Under the pieces are notes generated by a model, which was given only the letters and a program-made list of their open reading frames with translations, did no database searches and was not told the DNA's origin. DNA of 64,000 nt from Styela clava (Eukaryota): NCBI RefSeq assembly GCF_964204865.1, contig NC_135258.1:5828001-5892000 (forward strand). Direction: 5' to 3'. Position 1 is the first letter of the stretch; each line of letters begins with the position of its first letter. This document shows positions 7,429 to 62,895 of this stretch, piece by piece. The position numbers were made by a program, and so were the translations under genes.

Positions 7429-9678
7429 TTAAAGCTCAATGCTTGTGATAAAACTTTCAGTAGAAGAAGTCGCAGTCTTAAAAATTTTGATGTTCATAAA
7501 ATGACACATAGAAATTATAGTCGCTCTGCAATTTTGCATTCCAGCTTTGAGTTTTTCTCGTTGTTGAGTGTTTTGTGACGCTTTCACAGCCTCTGCCTCT
7601 GGGACAGTAAATCCTATTAACTTTCTCAAAACTTCGTTTGAAAATTCTGCATCTAATGTGTCCGTCCCATCACAGATTCTTGCTTTTAATCCCCAGCCTA
7701 TAAAAGCATCAGATCTTAGCTTTGATAATAGAGTTACGACGATGCATTTTGAACGAACATTGATTTCTTTTCGGCCTTGATATTTTGATAAAAACACTTT
7801 CGCTTGACACAGATAATCCATTTGATTAGTTTCTGGACACTCTGGATCCTTTTTTACGACGGAATTTAATGTATACGATGGCTTCACTTGTGGTATAGTT
7901 GAAGCTTGAATATGGTGAGACTTTGGTTTTAACTTTGTCTCATTTCTGGAGTTTAAAACAGGAATATCATCATCAAATATTTCCATATTATCATCTGACA
8001 TTAATAATGTTGAGGCCTCATCTCTATTTGTATGTGTTGATAACTTTTTTGGCGAGATGAATTCTGTGTGCTGTGATGGCCTATATTCTTGCTTATATGA
8101 GATATTTGTTTTACTAGGCTGAGGAAAGTTTCCTGAGGCACCACGCTGCATTGAATTTGGATCAGATTTAGTTGGTTTCTGAAACAAACTAGGACCTGGC
8201 ATTGCTTGTTTCTGATGGAGTGTTTCAGACTCTTTTTTTATTATGACAGAATTTGATAACTTACTTACTTCAGTATTTTTGCTGCCAAAATTGGATGAAT
8301 TTATTGCTTGTTTTTCAAGTGAACTGCAACCCGGCATCGCTTGTTTCTGATATAGCATTTTTGACTCTTTCTTTATTATGGCAGAATTTGATAGCTTAGG
8401 TACTTTAGGATTGTTGATGCCAATGTTGGTTGAATTTGTAGCTTGTTGTTCATTTGTATTATTAACCAAATGCTTATCCAAGTCTGCATCTGCCAGTAAG
8501 TCATCAATACCCTCCTCATCGTCAGAAATTGTGATAATATCAAATTTTTTACCACCAGTATTCTTGATAGTAGAAGTTGATGACGTCGCGCAATCTTTTT
8601 GATTGCATGATCCAGTATCTTCAAAATGGGTTGAAACTAAGCTTGAAAGTACGGCATCGTCCATAGAATCATCAAAATCTGCATCGGCCATGATTTGATC
8701 CAACTCAGCATCATCGAAATCTACATCAACATTTCTTGAACTAGATTGGGCTTGATTCTCGAAACTACTAAGAACTCTTCGCTGATTGGTTTTTGTATTT
8801 ATTGTTCTGTTTTGAATATAATTTCCATGACCACTTTGGTTGGAATTTGCAACATTTGTTCGATTTCGAGCGTTTTCATTTCTTGAATTCGGCTGATTTC
8901 GGCTTTGATTTTCAGAGCCTACAAGGCTTCTTTGTCCCGGATTCGCAACATTAATTGTCCGATTCTGTGGTGATTCATTTCTTGTGTTTGCCTGACTATT
9001 TTGACTTACAGTATCCGATATGTTAGTTTGAGCAGTAGGGTTTGTTGGAATAGGCCTGTTCAATCCTCTACAAAGCATAGCTTCATAGTTACACGATTGA
9101 AACATATCCTCCACTTCTCCTCCTAATATATCAATATTACTTTGTTTCAGCATCATAACTCCACGTCTACAAATAACAGGTCCTCGTATAGTAATTTTCG
9201 TACCAGGGGTTATTTTTTCATTTATTTTTGGTATTTGGGTATATTCCATACCAGATATTTCCTGTACGCCATCAGTAATGCTCATCATTAGCATTCGTGA
9301 TGGCTTTGCTTCCCATGGCTTTTGTGTCGCTTGTGTTTCCGCACACACAAACATATTAGAGTTCTCTTTATTTTGTCTTTGTAATAACTGTGAGTATTTT
9401 GGCTGTGAAACATCTAATACATTGTCAATTTGGACACAATAAATCCCTTTTAAAGTATAAGCATCATTTGTGATTTCGGAAGGAAGGCATCCTTCTCCAA
9501 AGTCTCTCAAATCAGTCAAAAGCCATTGCTCGTAAACTAAATTTCTGATTGTCGTAGGATCAGTAGGGTTCGGATTCTCAGATCTCAACCATTCCAAACA
9601 TGCTGAAACCCAGTCATTGGGAACTGAAATATGCTTTGACTTCAACCAGGCAGAAATAGCGTTTGTTGAAGTTGACAT
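7429..9678 (-). CDS. RMI1: RecQ-mediated genome instability protein 1, single coding exon, 749 aa
   Basis: N-terminal WVSACLEWL/YEQWLLTDLR, OB fold (SRMLMMSITDG...GMEY...PGTKI...RGVMML...ILGGEVE), disordered middle, C-terminal OB fold (ICDGT...VLRKLIGFT). Confidence 0.95.
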   Translation of the reverse strand: MSTSTNAISAWLKSKHISVPNDWVSACLEWLRSENPNPTDPTTIRNLVYEQWLLTDLRDFGEGCLPSEITNDAYTLKGIYCVQIDNVLDVSQPKYSQLLQRQNKENSNMFVCAETQATQKPWEAKPSRMLMMSITDGVQEISGMEYTQIPKINEKITPGTKITIRGPVICRRGVMMLKQSNIDILGGEVEDMFQSCNYEAMLCRGLNRPIPTNPTAQTNISDTVSQNSQANTRNESPQNRTINVANPGQRSLVGSENQSRNQPNSRNENARNRTNVANSNQSGHGNYIQNRTINTKTNQRRVLSSFENQAQSSSRNVDVDFDDAELDQIMADADFDDSMDDAVLSSLVSTHFEDTGSCNQKDCATSSTSTIKNTGGKKFDIITISDDEEGIDDLLADADLDKHLVNNTNEQQATNSTNIGINNPKVPKLSNSAIIKKESKMLYQKQAMPGCSSLEKQAINSSNFGSKNTEVSKLSNSVIIKKESETLHQKQAMPGPSLFQKPTKSDPNSMQRGASGNFPQPSKTNISYKQEYRPSQHTEFISPKKLSTHTNRDEASTLLMSDDNMEIFDDDIPVLNSRNETKLKPKSHHIQASTIPQVKPSYTLNSVVKKDPECPETNQMDYLCQAKVFLSKYQGRKEINVRSKCIVVTLLSKLRSDAFIGWGLKARICDGTDTLDAEFSNEVLRKLIGFTVPEAEAVKASQNTQQREKLKAGMQNCRATIISMCHFMNIKIFKTATSSTESFITSIEL

Positions 9679-10284: not shown

Positions 10285-10720
10285 GGGGCCTCGTGTAGTT
10301 TCGTACCTAATGTACTTCTAGTGTGCGTTTTTTGATAAGTCAATCCTAACCCCCATCTGACTACGCCATCCAAAAATTACGTCACTACAACATCACAATC
10401 ACGTCATAGAGCTTGCCAAATATACATACAATCGCCCGAAATGGCATTGGCGCCGACGATAAAGAACTGACTAACATTATCGATCTCTCTCCTATTGGAA
10501 TCATTGCGACGAGAAAGCGAGAGATATAACTGTTCGATTTCGGGTGCTAGTTTGCGCGTCTTGGATGGCAGTTCGTATAGTTTGAAGGGCTCTATTACGA
10601 CACTGCGAGTCTGTGACGTCGTGTTGACATAATTTTTGGATGGTGTAGTCAGGTGGGGGTTAGGAATAAATTGTCATGCTACGCCCACTAGAAGTATGTT
10701 ACAAAACTACATGAGACCCC
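10285..10720. mobile_element. Long-TIR MITE with 6-bp TSD
   Basis: ~100-bp imperfect TIRs (ggggcctcgtgtagttt / aaactacatgagacccc; cctaacccccatctgactac / gtagtcaggtgggggttagg) flanked by tttatt on both sides. Confidence 0.85.
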
Positions 10721-11068: not shown

Positions 11069-11271
11069 GGTGACCGTACATTTGAACCCACGTACATTTG
11101 AACCCATGTGTATATCCACGGGTTCAATCTATATGCAGGTGCTAAAACCCATGGGTTAGGGTTAGTATGGGTTTAACTATCCGTGAAACAAAAAAAATTC
11201 CATAGGTGCAATAGCATACAGGTGCAATTGTCATGGGTTCAAATGTACGTGGGTTCAAATGTAATGGAACC
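11069..11271. mobile_element. MITE with 9-bp TSD (Mutator-like)
   Basis: TIR with tandem tacatttgaaccca; TSD aaatttacc at 11060-11068 and 11272-11280; central gggttagggttag. Confidence 0.85.
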
Positions 11272-11365
11272 AAATTTACCTGAAAAGAGTCGTAATTTTC
11301 TTGCAGTCATCGTTTTATAAACATTTCAAGACTGGGAGAACAACAATCAAAAATACATGGTAGAG

Positions 11366-11381
11366 TAGCGCCACCTAGCGA
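11366..11381 (-). promoter_or_regulatory. Candidate CTCF site in the divergent RMI1/GTSF1 upstream region
   Basis: The minus strand reads TCGCTAGGTGGCGCTA, close to the CTCF core consensus; CpG-richer region ~11500-12250 lies nearby. Confidence 0.45.
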
Positions 11382-12482
11382 ATGTTAGTTAGGTACATTG
11401 GACTTTTCTTTTATTTGAGCACATGTCCTTGGTTGCTAAATCTTATATAAGAGTAATAAACATTTGAATATGAACTAAAATTTATTTAGAACAACACGAA
11501 TACTATATGAACAGGTATCGTTACTAGCGTGTAATCGACAATAGAATTTTTAATTCATGCCGCGGGAAAATAAAAATGGCATGTACAAAATACAAATGCA
11601 GCTATGTGAAATACAAAGAGTCAGCGGACGGCTCATCTTACGGGTATGCTGTTTTGGTCGAGAGACTTCTTTAAAAGACTGAAAGCTCGGCTCGTTTAGG
11701 TGTGTTTCTTACTTTCCATGACATAAATGAAAGTATTTAGGAGAAGAGTTTTAAAGGCTGCAGGAATAGGAAATTCCGCACAGATGCTTGATCTTTTATT
11801 CTAATTCCAATAGCCTACCGGTACCGTACGCTGGGGACTGCTCAATTACCGGTACCGGTAAGTGATTTCACGTTTTCCACTCAATTACCCGTAGTGTTGA
11901 ACCAAATATATTACCGCCAATTCCATTTAATGGTATAGACTACCGGTACCGGTATAACTGTATAAGGAACAAGACTCTGAATTCGGTACGGTCAGGTACG
12001 GTACCGGTACCAAGTTCTGAAGTTAGGTTACGCGCTGACGAGAATGTCATGTCATTCTTGAAGCAATCACGGGCGCAATCTCACTCACTTTTCTCTCGTT
12101 CGCGGTTTCATGTTTTTTTCTGAGGCGATCGACGACGGTGATCTGCTCTTTGGTCGGTGATCACTGGATTACCGCGCAGCTCTGGAGCGTCAGAAATAGG
12201 CAGTTACTGGGCTAACTGGAAAGTTCCTCCATTCTCAACTTTCCTGTTTCTCAGCTTAAGCAAATTGTACTAGGATAGACTAAACCCTAGATTTTTGATT
12301 CAATCCAGAAAAGCTAATATTTCAGTTAAAACTGTTTTGGACTGTCTTTCTCGATTGCTGCAAATATCCCATGGTTTAAGGACTTGCATCCACTTACTTT
12401 GCAGCTTTTATTATTTGTTTTATTATCTGAACAGCTGAATTTCACCTTTTTTGTGTCTTTGCCTTAATAATTTATGACTAAT

Positions 12483-12635
12483 TAGGATAGGTTTTACATG
12501 TTTATCCCAGGGGAGAGCAAAGTCAATAAGATGGCTTAATCATATGGCGAACCACAGCCTTTCGTCCTCTTACCATTCCATGTCGGGTATGGGATTAGTC
12601 AGCCAGTTTATTGCTTTTCGAATGCATGGACTTGA
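12483..12635 (-). mobile_element. 5'-truncated tRNA-SINE
   Basis: Matches the 3' part and taggatagg tail of the 38540-38879 copy. Confidence 0.75.
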
Positions 12636-13308
12636 TCTCTGACTGACTTAATCTCTGTATTTGCATTGTTCAAAATTGCTGTTTTATTTAACATTGAAAT
12701 TAGCTTCAAGTTTGTTTGAATCATTCTTGGCATTCTTTTTATATCCAATAATTTGACTTGTTATGAAAAGCCTCGTATACTGGTAGATGTGTAAATTTTT
12801 ATAGTGAAGCGAGTTCTTTGTTTCAAGCAGTACTACTGCTCATTGTATAAATATCATTTATTGCCATAAACTTATTGTAACTGTATTACCATGGGTAAAA
12901 ATTGTATGCATTTATTTGTTATTTATATGAAATTAAATGACCTTACCAGGTATTGTATTATCAATTGATTTATGTAGTATCCAATTTTCCTCTTAGCTGG
13001 AAGTTTATGATTATTGAAAATTTACTTTACTGATTTTTGGTCTGTGTTGTTCGGGGAAAAACATATTGGCCATTTTCAACTTGACTTCTGTATAGTTTCA
13101 CATTTCTATATTTGTTTAGTAATTCAGGTTTATAAGTCCCATGCATGATAAAATGTCATTCATGCAAAGAGTTACAGCTGATGACATAAAGCGAATACTT
13201 CTTTCTTATATTTATACCTTTAGCACTAAATAGTTGATTAGTTCGATAGATTAGTTGAATAGTTGATTAGTCTATTTCAGATTTTAATCTGCTCAAAAAT
13301 CTGTAACA

Positions 13309-13968
13309 ATGGGCGCTGTTGAAATCAACATGCAAACTACGATGAGCTCTGATAAGGATGAACTTTTTATTTGTCCTTATGACCCTGTTCATAGAGTTGC
13401 AGCTAGGAGATACATTCGTCATATTATAAAATGTCGAAGAAATTTCCCATTAGTTGAGAAAGCTGTTTGTCCTTTTAATGCAAGACATGTTGTTCCTAAA
13501 CCAGAATTGCGACATCACCTGAGCTGCTGCCCTGATGCTCGTATGATTGAATCTGAGATAAATTTTGATCGCTGTGGTTATGATGGGGATGAGGTTAAAG
13601 GTGATACATCAATGCCACCTATGCAGTCTCAACCATTAGATTTTGGGTCGGAAGAAAACTGGGACGACGAAATTGCTGATAATGCTTCGACGCAGGAATA
13701 TGTTTACGGATTATCGGGACCTAAAAAGACAGTGAATCGTAGAAGAGAAGAAATCAAAAGAATAAAAGAAGAAATGAGACGTAAAGCTCAAGAAGAAAGC
13801 AATTTTATTGAGGCTCATTTTGAAATTCATCAACGAAGGCCAATGCGACATCCTGGTGTTGCAGACAGACAGAATCTCATGCAGTATGGCCTGTTTTTTG
13901 CTGATGACCCAAATCCAGCCAAACCACTTCTCGCAGCCAATTTTCAAAAACCAGTGCTCTCTGATTAG
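13309..13968 (+). CDS. GTSF1: Gametocyte-specific factor 1 (Asterix) homolog, piRNA cofactor
   Basis: Two CHHC U11-48K zinc fingers (CPYDPVH...HIIKC; CPFNARH...HLSCC) and an acidic EENWDD motif; splice acceptor at 13280 just upstream. Confidence 0.88.
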   Translation: MGAVEINMQTTMSSDKDELFICPYDPVHRVAARRYIRHIIKCRRNFPLVEKAVCPFNARHVVPKPELRHHLSCCPDARMIESEINFDRCGYDGDEVKGDTSMPPMQSQPLDFGSEENWDDEIADNASTQEYVYGLSGPKKTVNRRREEIKRIKEEMRRKAQEESNFIEAHFEIHQRRPMRHPGVADRQNLMQYGLFFADDPNPAKPLLAANFQKPVLSD

Positions 13969-16458: not shown

Positions 16459-17191
16459 ATAAATAATTTGATGAAAAACCGTAGTACAGTAGTATATATT
16501 TACGGGAAAACCGATGTCCATCTTATTTTTAGCAATACGTCATAATTTTGCTGATTCACGATGATCGTTTACAGTTGCATTCGCCAGAGGCAGGGGCCGA
16601 TGTTTATCTTCATATACACACCGGTACCGGTAGCATAGGGCAGCTTACCGGTATTTGTTTTCGAAATTATTTAATTTTTCGAATCGAAATGGCACTGGGG
16701 AGTTTTTAAATTAAAGTGGCGCTGGACAGACTGTGCCGCCATCACGTCCCAGAATTTTAAAAGTTTTGAACTGCACTTAGCTGTAAACAGAATACGGTAC
16801 CGTACCGGTACCCGTACGTCGTAGGTACCGGTTAGGTCTGTAGGTGTTTAGTTCGGTAAAACCTCAAATGTTTTAATTAATTTAATTAATTAATTAAATT
16901 AAATTAATTAAATTTAAAAAAATTAAATGTTTTAAATGTGTTGTTGACTGTGATTTGTGGCAAGTCAGCAATCTGGCAATATAGAAACTCCATAAAATAT
17001 GATGGTATTTATGGGAGAGGGAGTGATCACTTTTTTGTGGCTTTGGGGCCAGGCCACTGAAATGGGGCCAGGCCACGGAGAAATTGGGGCCAGGCCACGG
17101 AGAAATTGGGGCCGGGCCACAGAGAAATTGAGGCCGGGCCACGGAGAAATCGGGGCCAGGCCAGGCCAGGCCATGGTGCTATGCAGTAATA

Positions 17192-18713
17192 CGGAGCCAC
17201 ACTCATATTCTGGTATGAAAAGTGGATTAGTCCTATTTTTTGTGTGTTCAACGGGTTAGTAATGATCTTGAAGGTACAGACAAACCTTATTAGTGAAAAT
17301 AATACGCTTGAATCACATTTAACCGAGAATTTATTGCCTGGAAATACTGGATAGAAAATGGAGCCACAGACTTGAGCAGTTCAGTATTATGGAGCCACAC
17401 TCAAATTCGTTTTGAGAAGTGGATTAGGCTTATTCTTTGTGTGTTTAACAGGTTAGTGATGATCTTGAAGGTACAGGCAAACCTAATTAGTGAAAAGAAT
17501 ACGCTTGAATCACATTTAACCGAGAATTTACTGCCTGGAAATACAGGATAGAAAATGGAGCCACAGACTAGAGCAGTTCAGTAATATAGAGCCACACTCA
17601 AATTCGTTTTGAGAAGTGGATTAGTCTTATTTTTTGTGTGTTTAACAGGTTAGTGATGATCTTGAAGGTACAGACAAACCTTATTAGTGAAAAGAATATG
17701 CTTGAATCGCATTTTACCGAGAATTTATTGCCTTGAAATACAGGATAGAAAATGGAGCCACAGACTAGAGCAGTTCAGTAATATAGAGCCACACTCAAAT
17801 TCGTTTTGAGAAGTGGATTAGTCTTATTTTTTGTGTGTTTAACAGGTTAGTAATGATCTTGAAGGTACAGGCAAACCTTATTAGTGAAAAGAATACGCTT
17901 GAATCACATTTAACCGAGAATTTATTGCCTGGAAATACAGGATAGAAAATGGAGCCACAGACTTGAGCAGTTCAGTAATATGGAGCCACACTCAAATTCT
18001 GTTTTGAGAAGTGGATTAGTCTTATTCTTTGTGTGTTTAACAGGTTAGTGATGATCTTGAAGGTACAGGCAAACCTAATTAGTGAAAAGAATACGCTTGA
18101 ATCACATTTAACCGAGAATTTACTGCCTGGAAATACAGGATAGAAAATGGAGCCACAGACTAGAGCAGTTCAGTAATATAGAGCCACACTCAAATTCGTT
18201 TTGAGAAGTGGATTAGTCTTATTTTTTGTGTGTTTAACAGGTTAGTGATGATCTTGAAGGTACAGACAAACCTTATTAGTGAAAAGAATATGCTTGAATC
18301 GCATTTTACCGAGAATTTATTGCCTTGAAATACAGGATAGAAAATGGAGCCACAGACTAGAGCAGTTCAGTAATATAGAGCCACACTCAAATTCGTTTTG
18401 AGAAGTGGATTAGTCTTATTTTTTGTGTGTTTAACAGGTTAGTAATGATCTTGAAGGTACAGGCAAACCTTATTAGTGAAAAGAATACGCTTGAATCACA
18501 TTTAACCGAGAATTTATTGCCTGGAAATACCGGTACAGGATAGAAAATGGAGCCACAGACTAGAGCAGTTCAGTAATATGGAGCCACACTCAAATTCGTT
18601 TTTAGAAGTGGATTAGTCTTATTTTTTGTGTGTTTAACAGGTTAGTGATGATCTTGAAGGTACAGGCAAACCTTATTAGTGAAAAGAATTCGCTTGAATC
18701 ACATTTAACCGAG
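17192..18713. repeat. 197-bp tandem satellite, ~7.7 units, with a duplicated trimer
   Basis: Unit starts at 17192, 17391, 17588, 17785, 17982, 18180, 18377 and 18580; degenerate units continue at ~18911-19230. Confidence 0.97.
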
Positions 18714-21178: not shown

Positions 21179-24146
21179 GTCTAGTCGAATAAACACCATG
21201 TTTTATTGAATCTTCGTTAGATTTGGATTGAATAGTTGACAATGATAAAAATGATGTAATAATTCTATATGAAACCTACATACTTCCTTCTGTTAGATAA
21301 ATTTCATCCCATATTGTTGCTAACAACCGTGCCATAAAACCCCACTCCCTAATATCACTACCATTTAATTTTACGTTTTACCTGTATTCTCAAAATGGTG
21401 TGCAGGATTAAAAAGTATTTATTGGTGAAATAGGTATTTTGATTCCCAGTACTGTAAAATAATAAACCACTCAAGTCATCAAGAATTTTAGCATAATTTT
21501 TTTGTTTTATAGCTTGGAGAGAAGAAATTATATCATGGTGTCTGCTATGATGACAACAATACGGACTCTATATAATTTTGGTTTTATATTGTGTAGGAGA
21601 TACTCAACCTTACCAGTGTGGTTGCTAAAAACAAATTTGAAAAAATACCAAATTGAATTTTGCGAATTTTCCCTTGAATCTCTAAACCAGTTCCAGTCAA
21701 AAGAGTCTTACAATTTCCTTGCTTATGATTATCTAATATGCGTTTGTACTACTGTTACTTTTCCGATATATCTATGATGACTTATATTGAAAAAACAGTC
21801 TTATGATTGAACATTTATCCCTGATATTCATTACGCTGAATATAATTGAAGTAATTATCGGTAATAGGAAAGTCTTAAGATGCTAACAAAAAGGACTCCC
21901 TCGGAGATGAATCTTATTTTAAAAAAGAGTATGTTGGAATCCTGCCAATCTGGTGTTTGCAATTTTTTTTTGCATATTTTTCAATAAATGAAACAGTTTA
22001 TCAACTGGTATGCATGGATCTTGTTTTCTGTTAGGGATAATGTATAACTGAGAAGAGTAGTCTTTTTTGCATGTTGAGTATTGGGATACTAGTGGTTGTG
22101 ATAGCGTATACCAGCTACCGATATGTTGTGCCTGCAATTTGTATTACAAATCTAAAACATCTTAGCGTGTAAACCCCTGTCAATTGCCTATGCAATACAG
22201 GTAGAACTACACAATTTATCAGTACGGACTTCATTTAATAATAGCATTTGAGTCACTGGTGGAATTATTCCATGATCTATTAACCATGTATTGTATGAAA
22301 ATAATTAAATAACAACACATATTCGCTAAAAAAAATTAACAATCACAAAAAGGTATGCAACAAGCAATAAATATAACTTATTTCACTGAGTTTTTTTTAA
22401 CATATAGGCACCAGTTCACGCTACAGTAAAAAGACAATGAATGCGGGGAGGAATATAAATGTATATGTACGGTGACCAGTAGAAACACTACAATAATGTA
22501 TCGCTCGCAATATACCCCCTCACATAAGTAATACATTGGGTGAGCGAACACGTACTACTTCTTTTATCAATACCTTTCCATCTGAAATATGTAGGCTTCA
22601 AACTTTACTTGAGGTTTTGTTTGCTTTCCCGATTCTATAATCAGTTACTTTATCATTTGTTTTTATCTATTATTTTCTATTCTATTGCTGATTATGGAGT
22701 CGGTACATTTGTAATGAGTAAGTGTTCGAATACAGCATTTTCCCTGGTTGTAACATACGATACGGTTCAATTGTACAAGTACCGGTACGGTACCGTACAT
22801 GTCTTAACATTACCAGTTTCCACATCACTTATAAACAAAAATATAACTAAACAAATACGGATGTCTTAACATTACCATTGCGCTGGCCTGGCCCCGAATA
22901 TTCTGAGGCCTGGCCCCATTTTCTCCGTGGCCTGGCCCCATTTTCTCTGTGGCCTGGCCCCATTTTCTCTGTGGCCTGGCCCCATTTTCTCCGTGGCCTG
23001 GCCCCTTTTGTGTGGCCTGGCTCCAAAGCCACAAAAAAGTTATCACCCCTGTTGATTTATGGGATGCAATGCAGTTTGAGAGCAATTTTTAAATGTAAAG
23101 TATTGGGGTGCATGGGTTTGATGGACAGTGGATGCAGAAATAATATTATGCAAGATCAACACATTGATGAGATTTTAAATAAATCCATCATGCTATAATA
23201 TCAAGTTTCCAATGCAACCACTGGCCATCTCATGACAATATGTAACAGATTTCATTGTAACAGATTACCGTATTTACTAATTTGTGTAAAATGATAACAT
23301 AGATGGAAAATGTAGGAATTTAATGGTAAATGTATCTGGTCTGAATTATTCAATATTTGTCTTATCTTTTCATTGTATACTTATTCATTGTATAAAATCA
23401 CCTAAATTACATCACAAAAATAAAAATAAAATTTGGACCTCATGCAATAATATTGAAATATATATTTGGATACACCAAAACTATCATTTGTATAAATCCG
23501 ATTTGGCAATGGAATTAAATTTGGCAAAAAAAAAAAAAAGTTTTAATCTTTTTAATGTATGGTACATCTGAGCATCACATAGATACAGCCAGTACAGCTG
23601 TGCTTTTATGTTCTGCATATTCCAGTATTCAGATACCGGTATTGGATTTAAGCAGAAGACAGAAAAAGGTGAATAATCTATAACAGTTGATGCTGATAGT
23701 TTTTAGACTTTGGGTCATTTGTCAGTATTTACATGTTTTTTGATGGGCTACGGTACCTTAGGTATATAAGTTATTTATTTTCTGTTTAATATGCTGATCT
23801 TTTTATTGCACTATCCCAATGTAAATAATTTAATCAATACCTTGATTACATACTGTCAAAATGGAAAACAGACTTTTGTCTTAAAATTCAGGGGAATACA
23901 AATTGTCTGAACATTGGATTTACTTCAACTGTTGCTCTGTTTATCTGCAATTTATTATGACTGATTTATGTCATCTTTGAAGTCAAGTTCCCTTCATATT
24001 CATTTGCTTGAAAATTGGTAAAAATCTACAGTGGTCTAATTCGAATTTCATGGAATTTGTAAAAATAATGATTCCTATGCTGCGGCAGTAGCATTTCTTA
24101 AGACAAAACTCTCAACTAGAAATAATTTTGCATATCATCATTTCCC

Positions 24147-61319: not shown

Positions 61320-62036
61320 GTAGGTTTAGTTTGTATAAAATTCACGCAAGATTACCATTCTGGCTTACCATTAAGACGTTGTAGCATAGGCCTTCATTTT
61401 AATTGCTTTTTTTGCGGCATTTGCAGTGAGGCATAAATTCCAAAAGTATATGTACCAATATGGAGGTAACTAACTTTGTTCGCCTACTTTACATCAAGTT
61501 GTGTAAAGGGACTGAAACCTATGGACAGGGGGTAGATTCACTTGGCTAATACAGACAGTCCCGAACTCGTAATAGAACTAAAATAGGGAAATTAGAACTA
61601 AAAAGAGGAAAATAAAATTATGGCCTAACCCTAACCTGGTAAACACACTGCGTGATAACCTAAATTCGTACGTCTTTTTTAATAACATTTTACTCTTTTT
61701 TTGAACGATTTACTGAGTACTCGACGTTACCTGGCTTGCTATCAATAATCCTTTGTTCCAATGAACCAACCGCGATAGATGGAAAGGCGCGCCCATATAG
61801 CTTGGATAACTTCGACAGCGAAATAAGTCAGGAGAGAGATTCTTTAGGATATTGTTAGACATCAGTGCCTGCTTTTATGTAGCCTTGTTCAAAACAAAAT
61901 GCACGAGTAAGTGTTGTGTTACGTCATAATACTAAATTTTGGTCTGATTACGGTTTTGCGTCAGTGGCCTAGTGATTAAAAGCAAGGTGGCTAGCCTTGT
62001 ATGTTGTATAATTCAGGTTGAGAATGCCTGGTACTA

Positions 62037-62354
62037 CCGTGTTTCCTTTAGGGTCCTATTTCAATTTTCTTTCGAAACATAACACTAGGGCTTATTTTGA
62101 TGGATGTCTTTTATTTTCATTCATCACAAACAAAATTACAAAGTAGTGAATCACGAAATTTTCAAATATACAAAATATGAATCGTGGCGTGATCTTCACG
62201 TTACCTCAGGTCATTGAACCTTTTTCTTCGTTCACACGTTTTAGATTATTCACCTAAAGTTTCTTGCTATCGAATAGGTCAATTAAAAGTTGCGCTATCA
62301 ACTTGGTCTTATTTTAATGGGAAGTATTATATTAAAATCATTTTCAAAACACGG
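62037..62354. mobile_element. Tc1/mariner (pogo-like) MITE with CCG...CGG termini
   Basis: TA|ccgtgttt ... aaacacgg|TA. Confidence 0.75.
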
Positions 62355-62895
62355 TATTTGTCTATTTTGAAATAGTTTTAAATTCTGGAATCCTGATATG
62401 CAATAATTGTTAATTCCGTTAATTAACGTATATTTGAACCTATTCACTAGGCCGGAAAATCGCGGTATCATGTAAAATTAATCCCGTGTCACTTCGTAAT
62501 TTGTGTTTTAAATTGCCAAATTTGCTGCCATTAGCCGGTATATTCGTTTGAAAACGACCAGTCAATCCTGCCTTATTACTGAACTACCGGTAATTTCTAA
62601 TGAATAACCAACATTGAACAGCATATTGAACCAATTTCTAAGACACTGTTTCGATATCGGTAGCTGCTTGTACATTACCGAAAGGCGTAATTGATAATTT
62701 TAAAAATATTGACCTTCCGAAATTCGTTGGTTACTTGAAGGAAGGAATGCGTGATTGGAACATTTTTTAATACAAAATGTCTAATTGCCAACTTTTTAAA
62801 TCGTATATACTATAACGTACACATTATTACGTTACTTAGAACCTCATTTAACTAATTTCTAATGAATAATCAACTCCACCATTCTTTCTACACAG

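What the first reader, a model, noticed from the sequence alone, without database searches (positions are those of the whole stretch)
11816..12010. TACCGGTA/TACCGTA/TACGGTA chains look like stacked transposon excision footprints at promoters
Seen: at least 18 TACCGGTA by eye (7018, 11021, 11816, 11847, 11853, 11941, 11947, 12002, 16032, 16050, 16625, 16646, 16803, 18528, 22780, 23634, 42739, 62585). My rough estimate for ~33% GC is under 1 expected. The chains parse exactly as TA-(CCGG|CCG|CGG)-TA units sharing their TA, e.g. TACGGTACCGTACCGGTA (16793) and TACCGGTACGGTACCGTA (22780). They cluster in CpG-richer promoter-like zones (11.8-12.0 kb, 16.0-16.8 kb). Known: Tc1/mariner elements duplicate TA and leave a few terminal bases on excision (Sleeping Beauty leaves TA-CAG/CTG-TA). 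A TA|CCG...CGG|TA element is present at 62037-62354. Inference: repeated insertion and excision in open germline chromatin writes CpG-containing palindromes into promoters, giving a heritable record of transposition and possibly new regulatory motifs.
Basis: partly seen in the sequence, partly recalled or inferred. Interest (0 to 1): 0.75.

Follow-up and report, generated by a model that had tools for sequence, protein, structure and literature searches.

The report
Stacked transposon scars in sea squirt
The short palindrome TACCGGTA occurs about 30,000 times in this sea squirt genome and appears as a ready-made insertion at plain TA sites, most likely the scar left when resident cut-and-paste jumping genes hop out, with repeated hits at the same spots likely building the chains seen between two genes.

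Summary
Observation confirmed: 18 TACCGGTA in the window (0.4-0.9 expected), 30,656 genome-wide. The genome is an ascidian, labelled Styela clava by a 100% protein hit. Three tests show the units are insertions at TA. (1) In the 197-bp array at 17184-18713 one copy carries +CCGGTA and six paralogs have plain TA. (2) Among sites with paralogs, empty copies outnumber filled at 5 of 21 CCGG sites against 13 of 2,138 controls. (3) A second haplotype lacks whole units at 11813, about 11822, about 11855 and 11936. The genome holds a Fot-like pogo element with TA|CCG..CGG|TA ends, six copies identical over 2,938 bp, which prefers G|TA|C, the context a scar creates. GG-ended elements match a second scar set (TAGGCCTA, TAGCCTA), and mixed chains argue against slippage. 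The mechanism is known; the genome-wide scale was not found in eight literature searches. This scan reported the same thing before in diatoms.

The parts
11811..11828 (.). Three-unit scar chain TA-GCC-TA-CCGG-TA-CCG-TA, made of two scar types (GG-ended and CC-ended elements)
   Evidence: parse. Second haplotype lacks 5 letters at 11813 (GCCTA) and 1+4 letters at 11820/11822, leaving a single TACCGGTA (X1 and X4 contigs, 1 raw read of X15).
11847..11860 (.). Two-unit chain TACCGGTACCGGTA
   Evidence: Second haplotype lacks 3+2+1+2 letters at 11855-11867, consistent with one unit fewer plus small neighbouring changes; gap placement is ambiguous.
11936..11954 (.). Chain TA-GAC-TA-CCGG-TA-CCGG-TA
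   Evidence: Second haplotype lacks 5 letters at 11936 (TAGAC) in X1, X3, X4 and one X15 read.
11997..12009 (.). Chain TACGGTACCGGTA, preceded by decayed similar units from about 11984
   Evidence: Second haplotype lacks one C at 12004, so it has a 7-mer where the window has the 8-mer.
16793..16810 (.). Three-unit mixed chain TACGGTACCGTACCGGTA
   Evidence: An RNA-guessed contig of another sample shows 21 gap letters over 16595-16865, letters not seen.
18528..18535 (.). Single TACCGGTA inserted at a TA in one unit of a 197-bp tandem array (17184-18713, 7.7 copies)
   Evidence: 6 paralogous units with plain TA, 0 with the insertion.
22780..22797 (.). Three-unit mixed chain TACCGGTACGGTACCGTA
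62035..62356 (+). Degenerate non-autonomous pogo-type MITE (called family C here) with TA on both sides; both terminal repeats have lost their inner part
   Evidence: 45 matches, 1,951 first-look candidates; ends compared with 7 relatives; related 2.2-2.3 kb autonomous elements.
7429..9678 (-). RMI1 coding sequence; the cluster lies 2.1-2.3 kb upstream of its ATG
   Evidence: PF08585, PF16099, PF21000
13309..13968 (+). GTSF1-like CHHC zinc-finger coding sequence; the cluster lies 1.3-1.5 kb upstream of its ATG
   Evidence: PF05253
24147..25658 (+). Tubulin-tyrosine-ligase-like coding sequence downstream of the 16-23.6 kb scars
   Evidence: PF03133

Best explanation
TACCGGTA, TACCGTA and TACGGTA arise as 6- and 5-letter insertions at plain TA sites and are most likely germline excision scars of resident pogo-type DNA transposons with CC ends, the chains likely forming because scarred sites are hit again. 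Shown: insertion at TA, presence/absence between paralogs and haplotypes, TA-duplicating elements with matching ends, very recent activity of one family (A), and its preference for G|TA|C. Inferred: insertion duplicates TA; excision leaves about 2 terminal bases on each flank; end joining either keeps both (TA-CC-GG-TA) or loses one (TA-C(C/G)G-TA). The same rule applied to the GG-ended elements gives TAGGCCTA and TAG(G/C)CTA, which are also enriched and inserted. A scar leaves G before one TA and C after the other, matching family A's target preference, which would make re-insertion self-reinforcing. A Passer-like bias to open 5' regions, plus selection against frameshifting 5-bp scars and against the long insertion in coding DNA, would concentrate scars near gene starts. 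Odds: footprint origin about 0.88; chains mainly by re-insertion about 0.75; real 5' bias about 0.55; regulatory function about 0.1.
For: Tandem array 1 filled vs 6 empty. Cleaned paralog test: empty outnumbers filled, not a tandem duplication, at 5 of 21 CCGG sites vs 13 of 2,138 other TA-4-TA sites (p 4e-7); 6 of 38 CCG/CGG vs 11 of 2,420 (p 1e-7); 3 of 19 GCC/GGC (p 1e-4); single filled copies face up to 13 and 16 empty ones, which gives polarity. More pairs in the C2 array. Second haplotype lacks whole units. Family A: HTH_psq plus DDE_1, DD35D by my count, 11 left ends genome-wide, 6 copies identical over 2,938 bp, outer flank -1 G in 16 of 21, -2 purine in 20 of 21; two empty paralogs confirm the TA duplication. 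Scar flanks with chain neighbours removed: -1 G in 110 of 281 vs 18% background. GG-ended autonomous families exist; TAGGCCTA 3.05-fold, TAG(G/C)CTA 2.07-fold. Chains: 1,090 double 8-mers vs 32 expected, 3,129 mixed 8+7, 454 cross-family TACCGGTAG(G/C)CTA vs about 80 by my estimate. 0 motifs in 35 kb of coding sequence.
Against: No site seen here with both the element and the scar: among 139 element ends no paralog carried a scar at the same TA (the one listed hit is a shared repeat end). Only 5 of 2,741 family C end motifs follow a TACCGG and they do not continue as that MITE, so the most abundant CC-ended family does not show re-insertion. Of 8 family A left ends examined none sat in a full scar. 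Scar flank bias (39% G) is weaker than family A's (76%). 16 of 21 CCGG sites with paralogs had no excess of empty copies. Family A has only about 11 copies for roughly 26,000 excess 8-mers. The GT-ended family predicts TAGTACTA, which is not enriched (0.8-fold), and the GAC/GTC test was not significant (1 of 29). Two haplotypes alone do not give polarity.
Confidence: 0.85

Rival explanations
1. Single scars come from transposons, but chains grow mainly by replication slippage of the CCGGTA unit.
For: TACCGGTA has TA direct repeats; double 8-mers are about 34-fold above independence; abundant family C ends are not found in scars.
Against: Mixed chains outnumber pure ones (3,129 vs 1,090); cross-family chains (454) cannot come from copying CCGGTA; haplotype differences at 11813 and 11936 are unlike units; all 5 CCGG paralog insertions are not tandem duplications.
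Confidence: 0.15
2. The motif is a selected transcription-factor site (homodimer palindrome), as proposed for similar motifs in oomycetes.
For: Palindromic; absent from coding DNA; about 2-4 fold denser upstream of genes; similar motifs were described as promoter elements in Phytophthora and Plasmopara (PMC3520976, PMC10031896, passages).
Against: It appears as a ready-made insertion in satellites and repeats, is not conserved even between two haplotypes, needs the flanking TA on both sides, and comes with 7-mer and GG variants predicted by element ends.
Confidence: 0.05
3. The insertions are made by the transposase without a lasting insertion (integration reversed at once) or by a host repair quirk at TA breaks.
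For: No three-state site seen here; many scars per extant copy.
Against: Inserted letters match the first two bases of resident elements in two families (CC, GG), which host repair alone does not explain; elements with TA duplication are present. An earlier unchecked note of this scan reports a three-state site in this genome.
Confidence: 0.07
4. Scars form evenly, and the clustering reflects survival of CpG in unmethylated DNA.
For: The top CpG quintile has the most 8-mers (24 vs 13-17); the ratio of CpG-decayed to other one-step variants is 11:3 in the lowest quintile and 9:13 in the highest.
Against: Decayed forms are few (45 against 84 intact in 864 kb) and cannot fill the gap; 22 of 80 chain-merged sites have a neighbour within 300 bp vs 4.7 expected (maximum 18 in 1,000 draws).
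Confidence: 0.1

Closest known systems
Tc1 excision footprint taCATGta of C. elegans (as stated in PMC3520976, passages; primary paper not held) and NHEJ footprints of Tc1/mariner elements (PMC2874221, passages)
   Same: TA duplication with two terminal bases from each end between the TAs.
   Different: Called rare there; here about 30,000 copies, from pogo elements, stacked in chains and polymorphic.
Fot-like family of the pogo superfamily (Gao et al., PMC7386202, passages) for family A
   Same: HTH_psq plus DD35D DDE_1, TA target duplication, 2.9 kb, short terminal repeats of about 24 bp.
   Different: Transposase split over two frames (likely one intron); no tree was built; no natural footprint spectrum described in the passages read.
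Passer (PS) pogo transposon (PMC9976928, passages and section 21)
   Same: DD35D, TA target in an AAGTACTT-like palindrome, 0-4 bp footprints, bias to 5' ends and active promoters in human cells.
   Different: Passer has BrkDBD/HTH_Tnp_Tc5, not HTH_psq; measured in cell culture; footprint letters are in a figure I could not see.
Repeated Stowaway insertion and excision at one TA in Triticeae beta-amylase (PMC1925063, passages)
   Same: [quoted passage not shown]
   Different: One locus in plants; here genome-wide in an animal with several families.
Oomycete promoter motifs: motif-1 TACATGTA and motif-9 GTACCGGTA (PMC3520976, PMC10031896, passages)
   Same: Same or same-shaped palindromes, abundant upstream of genes.
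   Different: Read there as transcription-factor sites, and the footprint idea was dismissed because of abundance; not tested here for oomycetes.

Membership tests
Excision footprint of a TA-targeting IS630-Tc1-mariner/pogo element | Net insertion at a TA with the TA duplicated | tested here: met
Excision footprint of a TA-targeting IS630-Tc1-mariner/pogo element | Inserted letters equal the terminal bases of a resident element | tested here: met
   CC/CCG ends in families A, C and others; GG ends in others
Excision footprint of a TA-targeting IS630-Tc1-mariner/pogo element | An intact, recently mobile transposase in the same genome | tested here: met
   Six identical 2,938-bp copies at different loci; activity inferred from identity, not assayed
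Excision footprint of a TA-targeting IS630-Tc1-mariner/pogo element | The same site seen with the element and with the scar | tested here: inconclusive
   None among 139 ends in about 1.5 Mb; few ends had paralogs
Excision footprint of a TA-targeting IS630-Tc1-mariner/pogo element | Transposase experimentally leaves this scar | not testable with these tools
   Needs an excision assay
Fot-like pogo (family A) | DD35D catalytic spacing | tested here: met
   Counted by eye in the ORF; DDE_1 E 2e-21
Fot-like pogo (family A) | HTH_psq DNA-binding motif | tested here: met
   PF05225, 25.1 bits, cut-off 20.4
Fot-like pogo (family A) | TA, TAA or TAAA target duplication | tested here: met
   TA, confirmed by two empty paralogs
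Fot-like pogo (family A) | Placement in the Fot/Fot-like clade on a tree | not tested
   No tree built
Passer | BrkDBD and/or HTH_Tnp_Tc5 without HTH_psq | tested here: not met
   HTH_psq found, BrkDBD not found
Cis-regulatory promoter motif | Conserved between alleles or species | tested here: not met
   Units differ between two haplotypes, although at least one 8-mer is kept per cluster
Cis-regulatory promoter motif | Positional bias to the transcription start | tested here: inconclusive
   Only ATG-based windows on 22 genes; no TSS data

The most novel reading that the evidence does not exclude
A handful of low-copy, highly active pogo elements act as a standing, self-reinforcing mutator: each excision scar is a preferred target for the next insertion, so the 5' regions of active genes accumulate family-coded palindrome chains. 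The most over-represented short palindromes of many eukaryote genomes, including oomycete motifs now read as transcription-factor sites, would be such scars, predictable from the first two bases of resident elements.
Probability: 0.4. Interest if true: 0.75.

Novelty: new variant of a known kind. Interest (0 to 1): 0.52.

Why it matters
Footprints are textbook at single loci. Here they are a genome-scale source of small insertions in a chordate, with alleles still segregating. If right, scars record where germline transposition happened long after the elements left, so copy number greatly understates activity. Motif-discovery hits of the form TA-XY-X'Y'-TA upstream of genes should be checked against resident transposon ends before being called binding sites. 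Family A is also a candidate native transposon tool for ascidians.

Tried and rejected
Three-state site search among 139 element ends: none found; the C2 array gave element plus two empty sites only; the top DDE_1 loci on C6 showed no terminal repeats within 1.5 kb. Family C as chain builder: rejected. A 3-base stagger with no overlap or one-base overlap (TACCGCGGTA, TACC(C/G)GGTA): not enriched (0 vs 0.6; 3 vs 2.8); a 3-base stagger with CG microhomology cannot be excluded for CCG ends. Grainyhead-type AACCGGTT (label recalled): 1.5-fold only. GT-ended family as source of TAG(A/T)CTA: weak. CpG-decay explanation of clustering: insufficient. First read laying over 12 kb was swamped by repeats. 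No RNA holder is on record, so no transcription start could be placed. The first paralog tally (8 of 24) included 2 self-hits and 1 non-TA centre, dropped. Four high-GC, satellite-rich blocks of the 16 random ones were left out of the 864-kb statistics; with them included the 800-kb random set gives 6.8-fold. Literature searches (listings only) showed no paper on genome-wide footprint accumulation; subscription journals are largely missing, and the Passer footprint figure and supplements were not seen.

Full report
Setting. The window is G000:C10:5828001-5892000 of a 377-Mb genome. The gene right of the finding is a CHHC zinc-finger (GTSF1-like) gene whose best named relative is from Ciona savignyi, and a transposase from this genome is 100% identical to a protein labelled Styela clava. 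The finding lies in single-copy DNA (depth like coding regions) in the 3.6-kb gap between divergent RMI1 (ATG 9678, minus) and GTSF1-like (ATG 13309, plus) coding sequences.

Observation. The genome holds 30,656 (control 4,861), one per 12 kb, so the window is about 3.5 times denser than average. In 864 kb (the 264-kb block around the window plus 12 of 16 evenly chosen 50-kb blocks; 4 satellite-rich blocks dropped) the 8-mer is 10.9-fold enriched and the 7-mers 2.6-fold; only 9 of 156 7-mers look like element ends. Swapping the outer TA removes the signal (0.8-1.5-fold). Some occurrences were copied with repeats (7018, 16032).

The units are insertions at TA. In the 197-bp array, the last unit has TACCGGTA where six paralogs have TA. 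I tested all 21,112 TA-3-TA and TA-4-TA sites in 1.43 Mb against paralogs in the same DNA. After removing self-hits and non-TA centres, empty copies outnumbered same-length copies, without the unit being a tandem duplication, at 5 of 21 CCGG sites (controls 13 of 2,138), 6 of 38 CCG/CGG sites (11 of 2,420), 3 of 19 GCC/GGC sites and 1 of 2 GGCC sites. Cases of 1 filled against 6, 13 and 16 empty copies give the direction. Part of that DNA was selected for motifs or elements, so the rates are not genome estimates.

Alleles. Laying four runs on 11290-12215 shows two haplotypes. One is identical to the window over 11550-12113. The other, in contigs of X1, X3 and X4 and in one raw read of X15 (another study), lacks GCCTA at 11813, five letters at 11820-11825, eight letters at 11855-11867, TAGAC at 11936 and one C at 12004 (letters). 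So the chain at 11811 has three units in one haplotype and one in the other. 12 of 25 indel rows were shown, and X3 did not list the first five. Two haplotypes do not give polarity on their own.

Candidate elements. A DDE_1 search gave 126 matches. Family A is 2,938 bp, TA|CCGT..ACGG|TA, with terminal repeats of about 24 bp; 11 left ends genome-wide; six copies identical base for base, one 6 bp shorter, three internally deleted, one heading a tandem array. It encodes HTH_psq and DDE_1 in two frames, with DD35D by my count, which fits Fot-like pogo (PMC7386202, passages). Two empty paralogs confirm the TA duplication. Its flanks are G at -1 in 16 of 21 and purine at -2 in 20 of 21, close to the AAGTACTT target of Passer (PMC9976928). 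Scar flanks, chain neighbours removed, are G at -1 in 110 of 281 against 18% background. It may add single scars but does not explain chains. The 62037 copy has lost the inner part of both terminal repeats. GG-ended autonomous families also exist.

Mechanism. Inferred from known Tc1/mariner chemistry (PMC2874221 passages; Tc1 scar taCATGta as quoted in PMC3520976): the transposase leaves a few terminal bases on each flank and end joining seals them between the two TAs. A two-base stagger gives TA-CC-GG-TA if both are kept and TA-C(C/G)G-TA if one is lost. For GG ends it predicts TAGGCCTA and TAG(G/C)CTA, enriched 3.05- and 2.07-fold and seen as insertions. Longer products expected from a three-base stagger are not enriched, though CG microhomology could hide them for CCG ends. 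The GT-ended family does not fit well (TAGTACTA 0.8-fold).

Chains. Double 8-mers number 1,090 against 32 expected; mixed 8+7 chains 3,129; cross-family chains 454 against about 80 by my estimate frequencies. Unlike units cannot come from slippage of one unit. A scar supplies G before one TA and C after the other, so family A-type elements would be drawn back to it. This feedback is inferred; no element was caught inside a full scar.

Promoter claim. For 22 Pfam-supported genes, the 8-mer occurs 14 times in 32 kb within 2 kb upstream of the ORF, 4 times in 35 kb downstream, 34 times in 405 kb elsewhere and never in 35 kb of coding sequence. Seven of the 14 are this finding's own cluster; without them the rate is about 2.5 per 10 kb against 1.1 and 0.8 (hand count). 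At 4 kb the upstream-downstream contrast shrinks (3.8 vs 2.0). Local clustering is real (22 of 80 sites have a neighbour within 300 bp, 4.7 expected). The CpG trend is slight. Passer's measured bias to active 5' regions makes the idea plausible, but no transcription start, chromatin or expression data were available, and nothing here shows regulatory function.

Comparison and novelty. Footprints and re-insertion beside a footprint are known at single loci (PMC1925063, passages). Abundant TACATGTA and GTACCGGTA upstream of oomycete genes were published as binding-site candidates with the footprint idea dismissed. Eight searches (listings) showed no report of genome-wide scar accumulation; the S. 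clava genome paper passages read do not mention it (PMC7540406). This scan noted the same motif and reading in diatoms (16 findings) and a three-state site elsewhere in this genome; both are unchecked notes.

Verdict. Real feature; footprint origin likely (0.85); promoter bias modest; function unsupported. New variant of a known kind; interest 0.52.

Noticed in passing
G000:C6:21.82-21.84 Mb (L102, L103): Six family A transposase matches at 2,937-bp spacing: a head-to-tail array whose junctions have no TA and lack one terminal base, as if a circle or concatemer of excised elements had integrated.
   Followed up: partly
window 17020-17180 and 22880-23050: Inverted arrays of a 22-bp unit about 5.7 kb apart enclose the 197-bp tandem array; possibly a foldback-like element.
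   Followed up: no
window 4400-46600: Seven host genes (ADP-ribosylglycohydrolase, RMI1, GTSF1-like, TTL-like, N1221/DUF3402, CCDC74-like, COMM domain) have long uninterrupted reading frames; many sampled genes elsewhere do too.
   Followed up: no
window 11800-13968: The scar cluster lies upstream of a GTSF1-like gene, a piRNA-pathway transposon silencer in other animals (recalled); no evidence of a functional link.
   Followed up: no
window 11893-11908: The second haplotype has 59 other letters in place of 14, starting right after a TACCCGTA; content not shown.
   Followed up: no
864-kb sample: TAG(A/T)CTA (1.48-fold), TAC(A/T)GTA (1.42-fold) and TAAGCTTA (2.07-fold) are mildly enriched and may be scars of further families.
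   Followed up: partly
L250, L251, L252: Internally deleted family A copies of 2,020, 1,707 and 1,660 bp with intact ends.
   Followed up: partly
window 10308-10701, 11077-11263, 12218-12618: Three high-copy repeats (two with inverted arms) share the RMI1/GTSF1-like gap with the scar cluster, marking it as a general insertion hot region.
   Followed up: no
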